Positions 42,897 through 48,044 of a stretch of 64,000 nucleotides of DNA are shown piece after piece. How positions within the stretch are numbered: the stretch's first letter is position 1; each line of letters opens with the position of its first letter. Location: the sequence record PZ534511.1. One strand, written 5' to 3'. The notes beneath the pieces were generated by a model. It was not told where the DNA came from and did no database searches. It worked only from the letters and a program-made list of their open reading frames with translations. Source of the stretch: a phage. A program made the translations under genes and the position numbers.

Positions 42897-45233
42897 TTAC
42901 CAAAGGTCGGTAGACATGAAGTTGATATCTTTATTGTTCTCCCACTCAAGTTTTGCATCAAATATTTTGTTAAACTCACCCTCATCTATTGAAATCGTGA
43001 TTTTCCCATCACTGATCTCTAAAGGTAGCATTTCCATAGTTCTTAATTGAGAAGCAAAACCAGGGCCACCCGGCAACGGAAGAGTCCCGCCCGGTAAGGT
43101 GTCCAAAGGATTAACAAACCCGTTACCTCCCGATATGATATCTTTGCGAATCATATCGCTGATAGTATCCAGCTGCTGATTTCTTTCACTTAGTGGGTTG
43201 TAACGGTCATTAAATAATTCCCCGGCGCTTAGTATTGTACCGATAATGCCCAGCTTACCGAGCAGACCAACTTTGCCACCAGGTGTCTTGAGGCCACCTC
43301 CACCTTTTCCTGCCGGAGCTCCACCACCAGATCCTTCTGTAGTAGCGGCACCCGCTGCTCCAGCTGCACCCCTTAGAGAGTTAAGGAATTTAAAGGTTTT
43401 TACAAGCATAGATGCCATGACAAAACCTTTTGTTAGGGCGTTGACGACCAGCATGATGGCAGCAGCAAACCCTGCCCATTTAGCATAGCTAAAGGTGTCA
43501 TGAAGCTCTTCAGAATATTCCTTCGTCTTGGCTGTTATGAACCCCCATTTAATCCCCCATTCAAGGAAAAACATGCGGATCTTGACTATAGTGTTGTTTA
43601 GTTCACCAACTACCCAGTTAAGGCCTCTCACAAACCCGCTAACAAAATCACCAGAGGCATCCCACACAAATTGCAGAGTCTCACCCGTGCGGATCAGTGT
43701 ATAATAGAACTCTGTTAGTTCGTCAGACCAACGGGTGAACAGTTTCTGACGAGTCAGTTCGATGAAGGTTTTCAGTCTGTTTTCTGCCAGCACGTTAGAC
43801 TTCTGCATTCTTTCATAACCAGCTGCAGATGCCTCGTTCATGTACTTAGCCACATACTTCATGATCTTGGCTGTTTTAACCTCACCTTTCTTCATCATGT
43901 CCATGAACTGATCCATGGAGAGTTCAGAAAGACCAAAAGCCTCTTTGGTGGCCTTGATAAAAGGTTCGTATGCACCAGGCAATGCTTCAGCAAGTTGTTG
44001 CTTCAGTTCTTCGGACATTACTTGCCCTTTACCGAGCATTTGCTGGATTGCCATAATACCGCGCTGGTATTTTACCTCATCGGCACCATAAGCAGCAGCA
44101 TACTGGGAGTATGCAGAAAACAGCTCATGCACTTCCTGATTTGTCATCTGGTTTTTGGCGTTTACCGACATCTGGGCGTAACCTTGAAGACCAGATTTGA
44201 GATCAAAACCAAGACGCATAGCCTCTTGCTGGACAAACGCAACCTCACTGTTAGCTTTGTTTGGATCTCCAGTAACAGCAGTAAGAGCAGCACTTGCCCC
44301 CTCCATCATGTGACCGGATCTATTAACTGCAGCAAATCCAGAAAAAGCTGTATACGCAGCTGTTGCATTAATAACAGATCTACGTAAGTCTCTCATGGCA
44401 TCGCCTAGTGTAAGCGTTTGGCTGGTGGCGCTTTTAAACCCAGACTGCAGCGCTGACAGGTGGGCGTTAAAGGTTGACTTCTTCATCTCCCCGCGAGCAA
44501 ACCTGGACTCTAACTCTGAGTATCCTGGCAAGCTTCCACGGAATCCGGCCCCATACTTGGCAGAAAGTCTTATCGCGGAGTTGTAGAGGTGGGTTCTCCT
44601 TGCCTCACGATCCGACATAAGCCTATTATCCATACCAGCTTTACTGTCTCTTCTTAGCTGTCTATGATAACGATTCATGGCAGCGGTCTGGGCTTTCACA
44701 AGATTAGGATCTGAAGCCACTCCACCCATGTTCGGGTTGCCTGGAATATATCTGAAAGACTTGGCGTTAGCAAGAACTCTTGCCTTAGGTGCCTTATAAC
44801 CCCCATAGGATACTGGTGCAGATTTGGCAGCTTTTTTAGCCTCTTTAGCTTGCTGCTGGTAGAACTTACGCATCCTAGCCATCTCTGGGTTTTTGGCGGT
44901 AAGATTGCCTACAGCTTGCCTACGTCTTGCATTCTCCCTACGCTCTATTGCAGCCTTTACTGCAGCCTCTTTCTTAGCCTGAGCAACGCTCTCCCTGTGC
45001 AGTTTAGCATTTGCTTGAGATTGTTGTCTGGCAACACGTTGCATTGTCTGCTGAGTTTTAACCGCCACTGCCTGCCATCTACTCATGGGGTTGGCTGAGT
45101 TAAAATCCTCGCCCAGTTTCCTGAACTCCCTCCCAATACTGCGAATTTTCTCTACAGCTTTTTTGTAGGAGGAGTTCTCTATCTCAAAGCCAATCTTGTT
45201 GACTGTTGTGGCAACTATTTTGTTTGTAGCCAT
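42897..45233 (-). CDS. Tail tape measure protein
   Basis: 778 aa, follows chaperone pair; helical Ala/Lys/Gln-rich N-terminus; Gly-rich GAAGAAGAATTEGSGGG and hydrophobic segments. Confidence 0.65.
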   Translation of the reverse strand: MATNKIVATTVNKIGFEIENSSYKKAVEKIRSIGREFRKLGEDFNSANPMSRWQAVAVKTQQTMQRVARQQSQANAKLHRESVAQAKKEAAVKAAIERRENARRRQAVGNLTAKNPEMARMRKFYQQQAKEAKKAAKSAPVSYGGYKAPKARVLANAKSFRYIPGNPNMGGVASDPNLVKAQTAAMNRYHRQLRRDSKAGMDNRLMSDREARRTHLYNSAIRLSAKYGAGFRGSLPGYSELESRFARGEMKKSTFNAHLSALQSGFKSATSQTLTLGDAMRDLRRSVINATAAYTAFSGFAAVNRSGHMMEGASAALTAVTGDPNKANSEVAFVQQEAMRLGFDLKSGLQGYAQMSVNAKNQMTNQEVHELFSAYSQYAAAYGADEVKYQRGIMAIQQMLGKGQVMSEELKQQLAEALPGAYEPFIKATKEAFGLSELSMDQFMDMMKKGEVKTAKIMKYVAKYMNEASAAGYERMQKSNVLAENRLKTFIELTRQKLFTRWSDELTEFYYTLIRTGETLQFVWDASGDFVSGFVRGLNWVVGELNNTIVKIRMFFLEWGIKWGFITAKTKEYSEELHDTFSYAKWAGFAAAIMLVVNALTKGFVMASMLVKTFKFLNSLRGAAGAAGAATTEGSGGGAPAGKGGGGLKTPGGKVGLLGKLGIIGTILSAGELFNDRYNPLSERNQQLDTISDMIRKDIISGGNGFVNPLDTLPGGTLPLPGGPGFASQLRTMEMLPLEISDGKITISIDEGEFNKIFDAKLEWENNKDINFMSTDLW

Positions 45234-45240
45234 GGTTTCC

Positions 45241-45282
45241 TCATAATAAAAAGGGCCAGATCCCAGAAAAGGAATCCGGCCC
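45241..45282 (-). terminator. Terminator/attenuator between chaperone and tape-measure genes
   Basis: Imperfect 9-bp hairpin GGGCCAGAT..ATCCGGCCC then TTTTTATTATG. Confidence 0.4.
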
Positions 45283-45287
45283 TTAGA

Positions 45288-45536
45288 TTATCCTCTCCTG
45301 CGCTTAGCTTTCGCAGCAGCTGCGGCAGCCTTCTGCTCCCGCTCCATTTCCCTGTTTTGGACGGTATCTAGGAATTCTTCGATATCAAGATACTCACATA
45401 GCTTCAGGAAATACGCCATATCTGCAAGATTTAGCGATTCAAAATTTTCCCCTTTGAAATTCTTGAGCACCCTGCACCAAAGAAAGTCGAACCAGTTTAG
45501 TGAACTGTTCTTGGCTGCCCACTCACTGGCCCTCAC
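45288..45536 (-). CDS. Tail assembly chaperone, downstream frame (gpT-like)
   Basis: Frame stays open about 42 codons upstream of GTG, overlapping 45548..46021 in -1 frame. Confidence 0.4.
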   Translation of the reverse strand: MRASEWAAKNSSLNWFDFLWCRVLKNFKGENFESLNLADMAYFLKLCEYLDIEEFLDTVQNREMEREQKAAAAAAKAKRRRG

Positions 45537-45547
45537 AACAACCTTGC

Positions 45548-46021
45548 TTATTCCTGCTCTTCCGGAGTCTGATCCAGATTGTTCACCTGCTGAATCATAC
45601 CCATCTGCTGTAACATCTCCAGAAGGCTTCCTAAACCGTCTTGTGTGAAAAAACAGCCGTAGTTAACCTCCAGAACCTTACCTGCCAGCTTAATCATCTC
45701 CAGCAGATGCCCTGCAAACACAACATCCGGGTTAAGCCTATCCACACCATCTACGGTAATATCTTCGAACAAGATTTTAAATAGCTCTTCAATGGAGTTA
45801 TCATCAAGTTCTTGGAACAGGTAAGCCAGGGCTGTAGGAAGGACCTCTGCCATATTCTGACCACCTGAGAGAATAGATCCACCGATAGCACCTAGCGGGA
45901 CAGCCACAATCTTACCGATTTTAGGCATGTTTTTCATTGCTTTCATCGGCCCCCAGTGGGTGATCACAAAGTTGTGCCCTGCTAAATCAATCTCTGTTGT
46001 AGGTCTAAAGTTTATAGCCAT
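45548..46021 (-). CDS. Tail assembly chaperone (gpG-like)
   Basis: Position between tube and tape measure genes; 157 aa acidic. Confidence 0.45.
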   Translation of the reverse strand: MAINFRPTTEIDLAGHNFVITHWGPMKAMKNMPKIGKIVAVPLGAIGGSILSGGQNMAEVLPTALAYLFQELDDNSIEELFKILFEDITVDGVDRLNPDVVFAGHLLEMIKLAGKVLEVNYGCFFTQDGLGSLLEMLQQMGMIQQVNNLDQTPEEQE

Positions 46022-46064: not shown

Positions 46065-46093
46065 ATTTTACCATGATTATGGTGCATTGTCAA
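46065..46093 (-). promoter_or_regulatory. Sigma70-like promoter (TTGACA-17-TAAAAT)
   Basis: Consensus hexamers after tube-gene terminator, upstream of chaperone/tape-measure genes. Confidence 0.5.
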
Positions 46094-46130: not shown

Positions 46131-46164
46131 CCATAAAAGCAAAAAGCCCCACCCGAAGGTGAGG
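46131..46164 (-). terminator. Rho-independent terminator
   Basis: Hairpin GCCTCACC-ttcg-GGTGGGGC (one mismatch) then TTTTTGCTTTT. Confidence 0.5.
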
Positions 46165-46183
46165 CTTATGCTAAAGTGTGCCC

Positions 46184-46657
46184 TTAAATAATACCTGCAA
46201 GACCTGCGAGGCCAGTAAGAGCACCAGTGATGTTATCACGGTTGAGCCATGCATCCAGAATACCGATATCCCAGTCCAGTTGACCTACTTCGGTTCCGTA
46301 AGTCAGGTCAGGCTGTTTCTGGATCCAACCGATTGTGGAAATACCAGGGCCCTGGCTACCTTCCAGCAGAACCGGGAAGAATACCAGGCCAGTAATAGAT
46401 GCCTGTTTCTGCCAGTCAGAAAGGTAAGCGTTCCATACAGAAGTGTTCTGCAAAGATACAGTCATAACACCGGATTGGTTACGGGACAGAGCCGCAGACA
46501 TTTCACCATCCACACCGACGTGAGGATAAATGTTGTCTTCGTTTCTTGAAACAACAATCTTGGTGTCAGCAGCGAAGCCAGTGACACGCTGCTGCATCAG
46601 ATACAGTTTGACCTTTTTAGGGTCATACGCATAAGGAGTTAAAATTTGAGTTTCCAT
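46184..46657 (-). CDS. Tail tube protein
   Basis: 157 aa directly downstream of sheath candidate; terminator follows. Confidence 0.45.
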   Translation of the reverse strand: METQILTPYAYDPKKVKLYLMQQRVTGFAADTKIVVSRNEDNIYPHVGVDGEMSAALSRNQSGVMTVSLQNTSVWNAYLSDWQKQASITGLVFFPVLLEGSQGPGISTIGWIQKQPDLTYGTEVGQLDWDIGILDAWLNRDNITGALTGLAGLAGII

Positions 46658-46667
46658 CTAGGCTTCC

Positions 46668-48044
46668 TTATTCAGTCATTGCAACAGCATTGGTGGATTT
46701 AGAACCAACTTTGTCCAGAAGGACGTTGATCCGGATACGGACGAAGTGCAGGGCGTTGTTATACACCAGTTCTACTTTCACACCTTCCAGAACACGAGCA
46801 GCCAACTGATTGGTTGGGATTTCTGCACGTTTAGGAACTGTGATGATCGGGTCGTAGAATACATTATTGTCTTCGTCGAAACCTGTCAGGATCGCACCAT
46901 TCTTAATGCCAGTGTTGATTGGGTTGTTCATCAGGACAGACTTGATAACCGGAAGATCATCATCAGACATCTTCATGCTTAAACCCATGTTGGAGCGACG
47001 ATGCATGTACCCAAACATAGATTCTTCAGATCTGAACTTGATCCAGTGTGCAAAACGAATAGCGTCTGCATACTGACCTGAAGCACACTTACCTTCCCAG
47101 AAAGCGCCAACACCGTTAATCATTCTGTAGAAGTTAACGTGGTTTTCCCAAATAGCCATACGCTGAGTTAAAGTCAGAGACGGTGCAATCACACCTGGCA
47201 TCTGTTTTAAGTGCAAGCTGTCGCCGTAAGACGGATCGTTGGATGCCATAGCACCTATGATACCACCCTCCGGGAAGTCCTTATCTGCACGAGGATCGTA
47301 CATGCCAACACTGTCATATTGTGCAGCCATCAGTTTGGTGGCGATGTTATTATCTTTGCCAGTCACATCTTCTGCAGTAGAGTAGACATGCAGCTTGTAG
47401 TTAGCCTGAGCCCACTTCGCACATGCTTCAATGTCGGTGTGGTCTTCATGGCACAGGAAGTACCAATTGTCACGCTCAGCATTGATCTTATCAACTACTG
47501 TAGAAGGTTTTTCAGCATTGGCGATATTTTTGATTGTATAGTTACCAGTATGATAACCAACAGTACAGTCACCCGTGATGGTGAGAACACCGTCTTCAGC
47601 CGCTACAGTGATATCGTCCAAGTTATCATCTGCTTCGATTTTAGTCTTCATGGACTCTGCAATCTGAGTTGCACCTGTTCCACCAGAGATAGGCACTATC
47701 AGAGAAGTATTGTAGCCACCTTTTGCAATAGTCATTACGACATCGGTATCAGCTGCGGCAGCAATACCTTTAAAATCTACAGTGGTTTTTTCTTTTGCCT
47801 GTCTGCCGATCATAACATACTGCGGAGGGAATACACCGCCGAAAGCTTTTGCTGCAAACTCATAAGCTGCAGAGCCTTGTGCGAAACCGTCTTCCACCAT
47901 CTGATCCAGCTCAGCATATACACGAGCTCGCTCAGTAAAGTTGTTGTGGATAGCGATGAACAGCGGAGTTTCGAAACCTACAGTGTCAATAGGCTGGGTT
48001 CCGAGGTTAACTGTAACATCTACCACTTTATCTAAATATGGCAT
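46668..48044 (-). CDS. Tail sheath protein
   Basis: 458 aa; C-terminal VNFYRMINGVGAFWEG pattern resembles sheath core; position. Confidence 0.5.
   Translation of the reverse strand: MPYLDKVVDVTVNLGTQPIDTVGFETPLFIAIHNNFTERARVYAELDQMVEDGFAQGSAAYEFAAKAFGGVFPPQYVMIGRQAKEKTTVDFKGIAAAADTDVVMTIAKGGYNTSLIVPISGGTGATQIAESMKTKIEADDNLDDITVAAEDGVLTITGDCTVGYHTGNYTIKNIANAEKPSTVVDKINAERDNWYFLCHEDHTDIEACAKWAQANYKLHVYSTAEDVTGKDNNIATKLMAAQYDSVGMYDPRADKDFPEGGIIGAMASNDPSYGDSLHLKQMPGVIAPSLTLTQRMAIWENHVNFYRMINGVGAFWEGKCASGQYADAIRFAHWIKFRSEESMFGYMHRRSNMGLSMKMSDDDLPVIKSVLMNNPINTGIKNGAILTGFDEDNNVFYDPIITVPKRAEIPTNQLAARVLEGVKVELVYNNALHFVRIRINVLLDKVGSKSTNAVAMTE

What the first reader, a model, noticed from the sequence alone, without database searches (positions are those of the whole stretch)
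45288..46021. Possible -1 frameshift between the two tail-chaperone ORFs, without a canonical slippery site
The frame of 45288-45536 stays open for about 42 codons upstream of its GTG (to ~45662), overlapping the 3' end of 45548-46021 in the -1 frame - the usual G/GT arrangement ahead of a tape-measure gene. No X-XXY-YYZ heptamer was found in the overlap (nearest is GGTTTAG), and the downstream ORF also has its own plausible AAGG-GTG start, so both models remain open.
Basis: inference. Interest (0 to 1): 0.35.

Follow-up and report, generated by a model that had tools for sequence, protein, structure and literature searches.

The report
Tail chaperone frameshift with canonical slippery site

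Summary
The window is a Vequintavirus (rV5-like E. coli myophage). All genes discussed are on the minus strand.

- **What holds up:** the ORF geometry is as reported. ORF1 (46021..45548, 157 aa, Pfam Phage_TAC_15) is overlapped by the -1 frame of ORF2, which is open from 45662 to 45288.
- **What does not:** the claim of no canonical slippery site is wrong. An in-frame X_XXY_YYZ heptamer, T_TTT_TTC, lies at 45653..45647 (codons C123-F124-F125), three codons after the -1 frame opens.
- **Conservation:** T_TTT_TTC or T_TTT_TTT with an open -1 frame occurs in all 71 related IMG/VR loci and all but one of the GenBank relatives fetched (C_CCT_TTT in KLEP7). These span Vequintavirinae, Stephanstirmvirinae and Ounavirinae. 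It is the longest invariant nucleotide run across 13 divergent Vequintavirinae loci.
- **Own start:** the GTG/AAGG start of ORF2 is not conserved. In some genera the first start codon lies deep inside the conserved T domain.
- **Stimulators:** there is no downstream RNA structure. An SD-like GGAGG sits 13 nt upstream.
- **Predicted products:** G (157 aa) and GT (244 aa, junction ...NYGCFF|HTRRFRKP...).
- **Prior knowledge:** the same frameshift is annotated in Felix O1-like phages and described for related families. It was unannotated in every rV5-like record I examined.

Verdict: a real but ordinary new member of a known kind.

The parts
46065..46093 (-). Sigma-70-type promoter of the chaperone unit (TTGACA, 17 nt, TG-TAAAAT; 11 of 12 matches)
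   Evidence: The homologous site is annotated as promoter P51 in rV5 NC_011041.
45548..46021 (-). ORF1 = short tail assembly chaperone (G / TAC-N), 157 aa, product of standard decoding
   Evidence: Pfam PF21822 Phage_TAC_15, E = 1.6e-23, 84 bits against a cutoff of 22. phrog_3840 tail assembly chaperone, 1.5e-68.
45667..45671 (-). Shine-Dalgarno-like GGAGG 13 nt 5' of the heptamer; possible frameshift stimulator (inferred)
   Evidence: Read from the sequence. The Glu codon here is GAG in 43 and GAA in 5 of the distinct related contexts, against 38% GAG in the background. A 9-14 nt spacing is the reported range for -1 stimulation (PMC5009743).
45663..45665 (-). TAA stop that closes the -1 frame upstream; the -1 frame opens at 45662
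45647..45653 (-). Slippery heptamer T_TTT_TTC in the ORF1 frame (TG[T TTT TTC] = C123 F124 F125)
   Evidence: T_TTT_TT(C/T) is present in 71 of 71 IMG/VR loci and in all fetched GenBank relatives except KLEP7. It is the longest invariant nucleotide run across 13 Vequintavirinae loci.
45548..45646 (-). Dual-coding overlap: ORF1 C-terminus (TQDGLGSLLEML...EEQE*) and the -1 frame linker (HTRRFRKPSGDVTADG...)
   Evidence: The -1 frame R-F just after the junction is invariant in 15 lineages. Invariant GGTTT lies at 45637..45633.
45288..45647 (-). -1 frame segment (T part): 119 codons giving a Gly/Ser-rich linker plus a conserved ~80-aa T domain ending in a basic tail
   Evidence: phrog_10409, 9.5e-51. 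Alignment A3.
45288..46021 (-). Predicted frameshift product GT (TAC-NC), 244 aa = join(46021..45647, 45647..45288); junction ...VLEVNYGCFF|HTRRFRKPSG...
   Evidence: tblastn of this fusion finds 356 phage records that cover at least 80% of it as two pieces.
45534..45545 (-).
45251..45284 (-). Intrinsic-terminator-like hairpin (14 bp) plus T tract between the T-frame stop and the tape-measure start
   Evidence: Annotated as a rho-independent terminator in rV5.
46144..46167 (-). Terminator-like hairpin after the tail tube gene, upstream of the chaperone promoter
42897..45233 (-). Tape-measure protein gene (778 aa), the expected client of the chaperones
   Evidence: Pfam TMP_3, 2.4e-18. phrog_5255.
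46184..46657 (-). Tail tube gene (157 aa), expected partner of the T domain
   Evidence: Pfam KPP10_Orf10. Annotated as tail tube in 4MG.

Best explanation
A programmed -1 ribosomal frameshift of the lambda G/GT type.

Most ribosomes translating ORF1 terminate at TAA 45550..45548 and make the 157-aa tail assembly chaperone (G / TAC-N).

A minority slip back one nucleotide when tRNA-Phe occupies UUU (P site) and UUC (A site) of the heptamer U_UUU_UUC (45653..45647). They re-pair with UUU UUU, continue with CAC (His) in the -1 frame and terminate at 45290..45288. This gives a 244-aa GT (TAC-NC) protein with the junction ...NYGCFF|HTRRFRKP....

By analogy with lambda, the shared N-domain coats the tape-measure protein. 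The rare C-terminal T domain, tethered by a Gly/Ser-rich linker, recruits the tail tube protein. Neither protein ends up in the virion.

Shown here: the signal, the frames and their deep conservation.

Inferred: that slippage occurs, that its efficiency is probably low (there is no downstream structure, though an upstream SD-like GGAGG 13 nt away may stimulate it), and the binding partners.
For: 1. In-frame canonical heptamer inside the overlap, three codons after the -1 frame opens.

2. Same heptamer, same motif N-(Y/F)-G-x-F-F and an open -1 frame in four further Vequintavirinae genera at about 66% nucleotide identity. The same holds in phi92-like UPEC06, Certrevirus, Stephanstirmvirinae and Ounavirinae.

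3. All 71 IMG/VR loci (53 distinct contexts) carry T_TTT_TTC (67) or T_TTT_TTT (4).
   - The preceding codon always ends in T, whichever amino acid it encodes (TGT, TCT, CCT, AGT).
   - The -1 frame is open for 76-127 codons in all of them.
   - The zero frame stops after 9-43 codons.

4. The heptamer is the longest invariant nucleotide run, and the conservation peak, of the 734-nt locus across 13 Vequintavirinae. Distant blastn hits are confined to the segment around it (H99 and H100).

5. N120, G122, F124 and F125 are among only eight invariant residues of TAC-N.

6. -1 frame residues R-F immediately after the junction are invariant. In a second clade they are R-Y-W, while the zero-frame residues at the same place differ.

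7. There is no conserved independent start for the T domain.

8. In Felix O1-like Mordin the homologous pair is annotated as a joined CDS. In the CL1 record one extra T in the run (T7 instead of T6) yields the fused frame directly...NFGSFFRSKHFQKP....

9. In E. coli, UUN A-site codons with all-pyrimidine motifs are frameshift-prone, and U_UU.C is the second-best tetramer (PMC4066793).

10. Of 42 in-frame heptamers in the window's long ORFs, this is the only one whose -1 frame runs past the ORF's own stop.
Against: - There is no direct evidence of the fusion protein. The rV5 proteomics paper does not mention these genes, although chaperones are not expected in virions.
- No full-length fusion exists among 5.8 billion database proteins. 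This shows only that it is unannotated.
- There is no conserved downstream stimulatory RNA structure: 0 consensus pairs, and z = 0.07 for the window sequence. Efficiency may therefore be low.
- The IMG/VR survey was seeded with the peptide motif [EK][VIA]N[YF]G[CPS]FF. This biases it towards Phe-Phe, though not towards the specific codons or the open -1 frame.
- Many of the loci are close relatives of one another.
Confidence: 0.9

Rival explanations
1. Two separate polypeptides. ORF2 is translated on its own from GTG 45536 using the AAGG 5 nt upstream, giving a free 82-aa T-domain protein. The upstream open -1 frame is incidental.
For: GTG with a weak SD-like AAGG at a suitable spacing exists in the window. 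Many GenBank records annotate a separate small ORF here.
Against: - The start is not conserved. It is TTG with AAAGTC (no SD) in L021. The first ATG/GTG/TTG is at codon +79 or +83 of the -1 frame, inside the conserved T domain, in L025 and L028.
- Annotators place the start differently in every genus, including a CTG in rV5 and an Ile codon in PVP-SE1.
- The -1 frame is stop-free and conserved at the protein level (R-F-R..., ISKVV) upstream of the GTG.
- This model does not explain the invariant heptamer.
Confidence: 0.05
2. Transcriptional slippage. RNA polymerase inserts one extra U while copying the run of six T, producing a subpopulation of mRNAs in which G and T are in one frame. The ribosome does not slip.
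For: Inserting one T in the run gives exactly the fused frame, as in the CL1 record. The protein product would be indistinguishable from the frameshift product, apart from an extra Phe.
Against: - By my own knowledge, known bacterial slippage sites are runs of about 8-9 or more A or T. A run of six is short for this.
- The conserved feature is the phased heptamer with the preceding codon ending in T and C/T at position 7. That is the requirement for tandem tRNA re-pairing, not for polymerase slippage.
- The run is never lengthened in the 71 loci, beyond the T7 form that is itself a canonical T_TTT_TTT heptamer.
Confidence: 0.03
3. Chance arrangement. The long -1 ORF and the heptamer are coincidental, and ORF2 is not expressed or not functional.
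For: Canonical heptamers occur in frame about 2.2 times per 1000 codons in this window, so a single heptamer is not significant on its own.
Against: - The T-frame protein is conserved over 491 phage records and forms its own PHROG.
- The probability of 119 stop-free codons is about 6e-4.
- The arrangement is conserved in every relative examined.
Confidence: 0.01

Closest known systems
Phage lambda gpG / gpGT tail assembly chaperones (Levin, Hendrix and Casjens 1993; Xu, Hendrix and Duda 2004, 2013, 2014; summarised in PMC5009743)
   Same: - Two overlapping ORFs lie immediately upstream of the tape-measure gene.
[quoted passage not shown]
- There is no strong downstream RNA stimulator.
- The short and long forms share an N-domain, and the long form adds a T domain.
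   Different: - The heptamer is U_UUU_UUC rather than lambda's G_GGA_AAG (the lambda sequence is from my own knowledge).
- This is a myovirus, with sheath and tube genes upstream.
- No sequence similarity to lambda G or T was detected. TAC-N belongs to Pfam Phage_TAC_15.
- The chaperone pair has its own promoter and is separated from the tape-measure gene by a terminator-like hairpin.
Felix O1-like (Ounavirinae / Andersonviridae) 'tape measure chaperone' frameshift, e.g. Citrobacter phage Mordin_69/70 (KT363872.2) and Mijalis (PMC5543628)
   Same: - TAC-N is homologous (24-28% identity, alignment A1).
- The heptamer T_TTT_TTC is identical and sits at the same N-F-G-S-F-F motif.
- GGAGG lies upstream at the same distance.
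- The frameshift is already annotated as a joined CDS.
   Different: - The overlap is shorter: 11 codons against 32 after the heptamer.
- The T domain is only marginally similar (hhalign probability 50%, E = 1.6e-4).
- That group is annotated, whereas the rV5 group is not.
Pakpunavirus / Vandenendeviridae TAC-N / TAC-NC frameshift at a conserved GTTTTT motif (phage Adele, PMC12846349)
   Same: A poly-T slippery motif near the 3' end of TAC-N, a -1 frame uninterrupted across divergent genomes, and a downstream 'hypothetical protein' that is really the C-terminal domain. That paper uses the same comparative argument.
   Different: It concerns different virus families. The paper reports the motif for Vandenendeviridae and 231 Andersonviridae, and its TAC section names only those two groups, not Vequintavirinae.
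Phage P2 gpE / gpE+E' (Christie et al. 2002; from my own knowledge, not checked here)
   Same: A myovirus tail chaperone pair between the tube and tape-measure genes, with a -1 frameshift on a T-rich heptamer (TTTTTTG as I recall).
   Different: No detectable sequence relationship was tested here. The last base of the heptamer differs.
E. coli dnaX -1 frameshift signal
   Same: A homopolymeric heptamer, plus an upstream Shine-Dalgarno-like element within the 9-14 nt range that stimulates -1 shifting.
   Different: dnaX also relies on a strong downstream stem-loop and shifts at about 50%. Here no downstream structure is conserved, and the SD-like element is only partly conserved.

Membership tests
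G/GT-type tail assembly chaperone pair with programmed -1 frameshift (Xu, Hendrix and Duda 2004) | Two ORFs located between the major tail (tube) gene and the tape-measure gene | tested here: met
   Gene order is sheath 48044..46668, tube 46657..46184, ORF1, ORF2, tape measure 45233..42897.
G/GT-type tail assembly chaperone pair with programmed -1 frameshift (Xu, Hendrix and Duda 2004) | The second ORF is in the -1 frame and overlaps the 3' end of the first | tested here: met
   The -1 frame is open from 45662 to 45288. The overlap with ORF1 is 45662..45548.
G/GT-type tail assembly chaperone pair with programmed -1 frameshift (Xu, Hendrix and Duda 2004) | Slippery X_XXY_YYZ heptamer, phased in the zero frame, inside the overlap | tested here: met
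   T_TTT_TTC at 45653..45647.
G/GT-type tail assembly chaperone pair with programmed -1 frameshift (Xu, Hendrix and Duda 2004) | Arrangement conserved among diverged relatives | tested here: met
   (71 of 71 loci).
G/GT-type tail assembly chaperone pair with programmed -1 frameshift (Xu, Hendrix and Duda 2004) | The second ORF lacks its own conserved translation start | tested here: met
G/GT-type tail assembly chaperone pair with programmed -1 frameshift (Xu, Hendrix and Duda 2004) | The fusion protein is actually made, at a low ratio to the short form, and both are needed for tail assembly and absent from virions | not testable with these tools
   Needs mass spectrometry, a reporter assay or genetics. 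The rV5 proteomics paper is silent on these genes.
Pfam PF21822 Phage_TAC_15 | Score above the curated gathering threshold over most of the model | tested here: met
   84.1 bits against a cutoff of 22; residues 15-129 on model positions 2-125 of 127.
Ounavirinae-type TAC frameshift site (annotated in Mordin) | T_TTT_TTC at the homologous N-(Y/F)-G-x-F-F motif of a homologous TAC-N | tested here: met
dnaX-type stimulated -1 frameshift signal | Upstream SD-like element 9-14 nt from the shift site | tested here: inconclusive
   GGAGG lies 13 nt upstream in the window. GAG is used 43 times against GAA 5 times at that codon, with 38% GAG in the background. However, 10 of 53 contexts have no SD-like core, and the sequences are related to one another.
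dnaX-type stimulated -1 frameshift signal | Downstream stem-loop or pseudoknot 5-8 nt after the heptamer | tested here: not met
   RNAalifold gives 0 pairs on 13 sequences. The window fold has z = 0.07. There is no Rfam match.

The most novel reading that the evidence does not exclude
The frameshift is tuned by an upstream Shine-Dalgarno-like element rather than by any downstream RNA structure. This element, (G)GAGG, is formed by the Leu-Glu-Val codons 13 nt 5' of the heptamer. It is maintained by synonymous-codon selection (GAG 43, GAA 5) across several phage families. If so, this large TAC family would use a dnaX/IS-like rRNA-mRNA pairing stimulator to set the G:GT ratio. In the genus Vequintavirus, a weak GTG start might additionally make some free T domain.
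Probability: 0.3. Interest if true: 0.3.

Novelty: new member of a known kind. Interest (0 to 1): 0.15.

Why it matters
The main value is correct annotation.

- In all the rV5-like, Seunavirus, Mydovirus, Certrevirus and Phapecoctavirus records I inspected, the T part is called a separate 'hypothetical protein' with arbitrary starts, or is omitted.
- No full-length GT protein exists among the 73 homologues found in a 5.8-billion-protein database.
- These phages are widely used in E. coli O157, Salmonella and Klebsiella biocontrol and therapy work. Correct gene models matter for engineering, cell-free synthesis and tail-assembly studies.

The finding also extends to Vequintavirinae and Stephanstirmvirinae the observation that one slippery site (GTTTTTTC at N-Y/F-G-x-F-F) has been frozen across several myovirus families. 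It does not change any concept.

Tried and rejected
- **Downstream stimulatory structure:** RNAalifold on 13 diverged sequences gave no pairs. The single-sequence fold was no better than shuffles. Rfam found nothing.
- **An already annotated fusion:** no database protein covers more than 62% of the 244-aa fusion. None of the rV5-like records opened carries a joined CDS.
- **Literature on a Vequintavirus frameshift:** no relevant paper was found. The rV5 paper mentions neither the genes nor a frameshift.
- **Numerical efficiency of U_UUU_UUC in Sharma et al. 2014:** this is given only in figures, so only the general rules could be cited.
- **Solved structures:** there is only a marginal hit for TAC-N (5ir0_A 'ORF19', E = 0.013) and none for the T part. 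NCBIfam had nothing.
- **Homology of T domains between clades:** hhalign gave only 50% probability, so I do not claim it.
- **Structure prediction:** not run, because it would not bear on whether the frameshift occurs.
it is not a slippery heptamer. However, the GGTTT within it (45637..45633) is an invariant nucleotide run that encodes the conserved -1 frame Arg-Phe.

Full report
**Identity of the window.** The 901-nt region around the finding is 98-99.7% identical to more than 110 rV5-like Escherichia phages, for example MiataMamis at 99.7% and rV5 NC_011041 at 98.4%. These belong to the genus Vequintavirus, subfamily Vequintavirinae. All genes discussed lie on the minus strand. The order is:
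- sheath, 48044..46668 (DUF3383 / phrog_205);
- tube, 46657..46184 (KPP10_Orf10);
- ORF1, 46021..45548;
- ORF2, 45536..45288;
- tape-measure protein, 45233..42897 (TMP_3 / phrog_5255).

ORF1 is a bona fide tail assembly chaperone. It matches Pfam Phage_TAC_15 at 84 bits against a cutoff of 22, and phrog_3840 at 1.5e-68. In rV5 the two ORFs are gp051 and gp050.

**Checking the observation.** The geometry is exactly as reported.
- ORF2's frame is the -1 frame of ORF1.
- It is open for 42 codons upstream of the GTG, to 45662, and is closed by TAA at 45665..45663.
- It overlaps the last 38 codons of ORF1.

The statement that the overlap contains no X_XXY_YYZ heptamer is wrong. ORF1 codons 123-125 read TGT TTT TTC (Cys-Phe-Phe). 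This gives the canonical, correctly phased heptamer T_TTT_TTC at 45653..45647, three codons after the -1 frame opens. It is the only canonical in-frame heptamer in ORF1.

Tandem slippage would give a 244-aa product: 125 residues from ORF1 plus 119 from the -1 frame. The junction is ...VLEVNYGCFF|HTRRFRKPSG.... On the minus strand the CDS is join(46021..45647, 45647..45288).

**Is it more than chance?**
- ORFs of at least 150 aa in the window hold 42 in-frame canonical heptamers, about 2.2 per 1000 codons, so a heptamer alone means little.
- This is the only one whose -1 frame continues past the ORF's own stop: 119 codons, against a maximum of 31 elsewhere.
- Base composition gives a probability of about 6e-4 for 119 stop-free codons.
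- TTTTTTC is under-represented in the window, with 8 matches against 16.6 expected.

**Comparative evidence.** This is decisive.

- *Other Vequintavirinae genera.* Henunavirus pEp_SNUABM_01, Mydovirus Mydo and KNP2, and Seunavirus 4MG and PVP-SE1 are only about 66% identical in nucleotides. All have the same T_TTT_TTC at the same N-Y-G-C-F-F motif. In each, the -1 frame is open from before the heptamer to a stop just ahead of the tape-measure gene, giving predicted fusions of 250-251 aa.

- *Wider phage records.* tblastn with the predicted fusion finds 491 phage records, and 356 of them cover at least 80% of it as two pieces in two frames. The same arrangement holds in phi92-like UPEC06, Certrevirus phiTE, Phapecoctavirus phAPEC8, Klebsiella phage KP2025, Pseudaeromonas phage KLEP7 (which has C_CCT_TTT instead) and the Felix O1-like Ounavirinae.

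- *IMG/VR survey.* This returned 71 loci with 53 distinct sequence contexts.
  - All 71 carry T_TTT_TTC (67) or T_TTT_TTT (4).
  - The preceding codon always ends in T, whether it encodes Cys, Ser (TCT or AGT) or Pro.
  - The first Phe codon is always TTT.
  - The -1 frame is open for 76-127 codons in every locus.
  - The zero frame ends 9-43 codons after the heptamer, and the +1 frame is usually short.
  - The scan was seeded with the peptide motif, so Phe-Phe is ascertained. The specific codons and the open -1 frame are not.

- *Nucleotide conservation.* In an alignment of the whole 734-nt locus from 13 Vequintavirinae, TTTTTTC is the longest invariant run and the centre of the conservation peak. 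The most distant blastn hits (PVP-SE1, GE_vB_MG) consist only of the roughly 60-76 nt around the heptamer.

- *Protein conservation.* N120, G122, F124 and F125 are among only eight invariant residues of TAC-N across nine lineages.

**Which frame is read after the heptamer?** In the -1 frame, Arg-Phe at positions 4-5 after the junction is invariant in 15 Vequintavirinae and Stephanstirmvirinae lineages. It is replaced by Arg-Tyr-Trp in a second clade, where the zero-frame residues at the same place are unrelated: Gly-Phe against Val-Leu. This argues for protein-level selection on the -1 frame directly downstream of the slip site, well upstream of any candidate start.

The segment that follows is a Gly/Ser-rich stretch of variable length. 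That is what one expects of a linker. It is followed by a conserved T domain of about 80 aa (phrog_10409) with a basic C-terminus.

**The independent-start model.** The GTG at 45536 with AAGG 5 nt upstream is real but not conserved.
- In a 70%-identical relative (L021) the codon is TTG and the AAGG is AAAG.
- In L025 and in Mydovirus-type L028 the first ATG/GTG/TTG in the frame is at codon +79 or +83, inside the conserved NSSL-W-(F/Y)-D core.
- Database annotators have placed the 'start' of this ORF at a different position in almost every genus. In RefSeq rV5 it is a CTG that abuts the heptamer. In PVP-SE1 it is an Ile codon.

A minor contribution of GTG initiation in Vequintavirus itself cannot be excluded. 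It cannot be the conserved route.

**Stimulatory elements.**
- *Downstream.* RNAalifold predicts no conserved pair in the 97 nt from the heptamer onward. The window's own fold is no better than shuffles, with z = 0.07. Rfam finds nothing.
- *Upstream.* The Leu-Glu-Val codons CTG GAG GTT form GGAGG at 45671..45667, 13 nt before the heptamer. This is within the 9-14 nt range reported for Shine-Dalgarno stimulation of -1 shifts (PMC5009743).
- *Codon bias at that site.* Across the 53 distinct contexts the Glu codon is GAG 43 times and GAA 5 times, against 38% GAG in the neighbouring long ORFs. However, 10 contexts have no SD-like core, and the sequences are phylogenetically related. I treat this as a plausible but unproven stimulator.
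- *The heptamer itself.* The E. coli rules of Sharma et al. 2014 favour it. UUN A-site codons and all-pyrimidine motifs are shift-prone, U_UU.C is the second-best tetramer, and re-pairing of tRNA-Phe from UUC to UUU is cognate.
- *Efficiency.* Without a strong stimulator, efficiency is probably low. That would suit a chaperone pair needed at a high G:GT ratio, about 30:1 in lambda.

**What is already known.** The G/GT frameshift is a classic (Levin 1993; Xu 2004).
- For the homologous TAC of Felix O1-like phages it is annotated as a joined CDS (Mordin_69, flag j2). It is also mentioned in genome announcements (Mijalis, PMC5543628).
- A December 2025 paper on Pseudomonas phage Adele argues, from the same kind of comparative evidence, for a conserved -1 frameshift at a GTTTTT motif in Vandenendeviridae and in 231 Andersonviridae. 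Its TAC section names only those two groups, not Vequintavirinae.
- For rV5-like phages I found no annotation of the fusion in any record opened, no fusion-length protein among the 73 homologues in the large protein database, and no paper.

The finding is therefore a correct but unsurprising extension: a new member of a known kind, and an annotation fix for several hundred genomes.

**Rivals.**
- *Transcriptional slippage.* Adding one U on the T6 run would give nearly the same protein. The CL1 record, which has T7 where its relatives have T6, shows that one extra T fuses the frames. However, six T is short for known bacterial slippage sites (my own knowledge). What is conserved is the phased heptamer, not run length.
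- *Chance.* This is excluded by conservation.

**Verdict.** Confidence in a programmed -1 ribosomal frameshift is about 0.9. Interest is low, at 0.15.

Noticed in passing
window 46093..46065, 46167..46144 and 45284..45251 (minus strand): The chaperone pair looks like its own transcription unit. It has a near-consensus sigma-70 promoter (11 of 12 matches, with an extended -10 TG). A terminator-like hairpin follows the tube gene, and a 14-bp terminator-like hairpin sits between the T-frame stop and the tape-measure start. A terminator between the chaperone genes and their client gene is not the usual picture of one long tail operon. It may help set chaperone to tape-measure stoichiometry.
   Followed up: partly
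L015 (Escherichia phage CL1, OK040806.1) 1174-1815, compared with L017 and L016: The CL1 record has seven T where all other Felixounavirus records have six, exactly at the slippery run. Its 'tape measure chaperone' is therefore a single in-frame 213-aa ORF. This is probably a homopolymer sequencing or editing artefact. It happens to display the predicted transframe junction (NFGSFFRSKHFQKP).
   Followed up: yes
L004 (rV5 NC_011041.1) 1045-1413, equivalent to window 45656..45288: RefSeq rV5 gp050 is annotated as a 369-nt ORF that overlaps gp051 and starts at a CTG abutting the heptamer. It is effectively the whole open -1 frame with an implausible start. Other records start this ORF at many different places or omit it.
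   Followed up: yes
Hits H27-H32, H50, H56-H57, H75-H76 (MG0656xx records): About 18-23 GenBank records named 'Campylobacter phage' with host C. jejuni are 98-98.6% identical to E. coli rV5-like phages over this region and have similar genome sizes. This suggests mislabelled or contaminant assemblies.
   Followed up: no
window 45637..45633 (minus strand), 10 nt 3' of the heptamer: GGTTT is the second-longest invariant nucleotide run in the locus across 13 Vequintavirinae. It encodes the invariant -1 frame Arg-Phe (CGG TTT) and the zero-frame Gly-Phe/Leu. The dual coding probably explains it, but a direct role in frameshifting was not excluded.
   Followed up: partly
whole window, both strands: TTTTTTC occurs 8 times against 16.6 expected from dinucleotide shuffles. 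This is consistent with general avoidance of this slippery string outside the one place where it is used.
   Followed up: partly
ORF1 protein, window 46021..45548: The profile of TAC-N homologues gives a marginal but near full-length match (E = 0.013; residues 8-140 against 10-137) to PDB 5ir0_A, 'Uncharacterized protein ORF19' (161 aa). This may be the only solved structure related to this chaperone family.
   Followed up: no
window 45332..45288 (minus strand), the C-terminus of the T frame: The T domain ends in an Ala run followed by a strongly basic tail (KAAAAAAKAKRRRG). A basic (R/K)RR(G) C-terminus is conserved across Vequintavirinae (alignment A3), while the preceding residues vary. Its function is unknown.
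   Followed up: no
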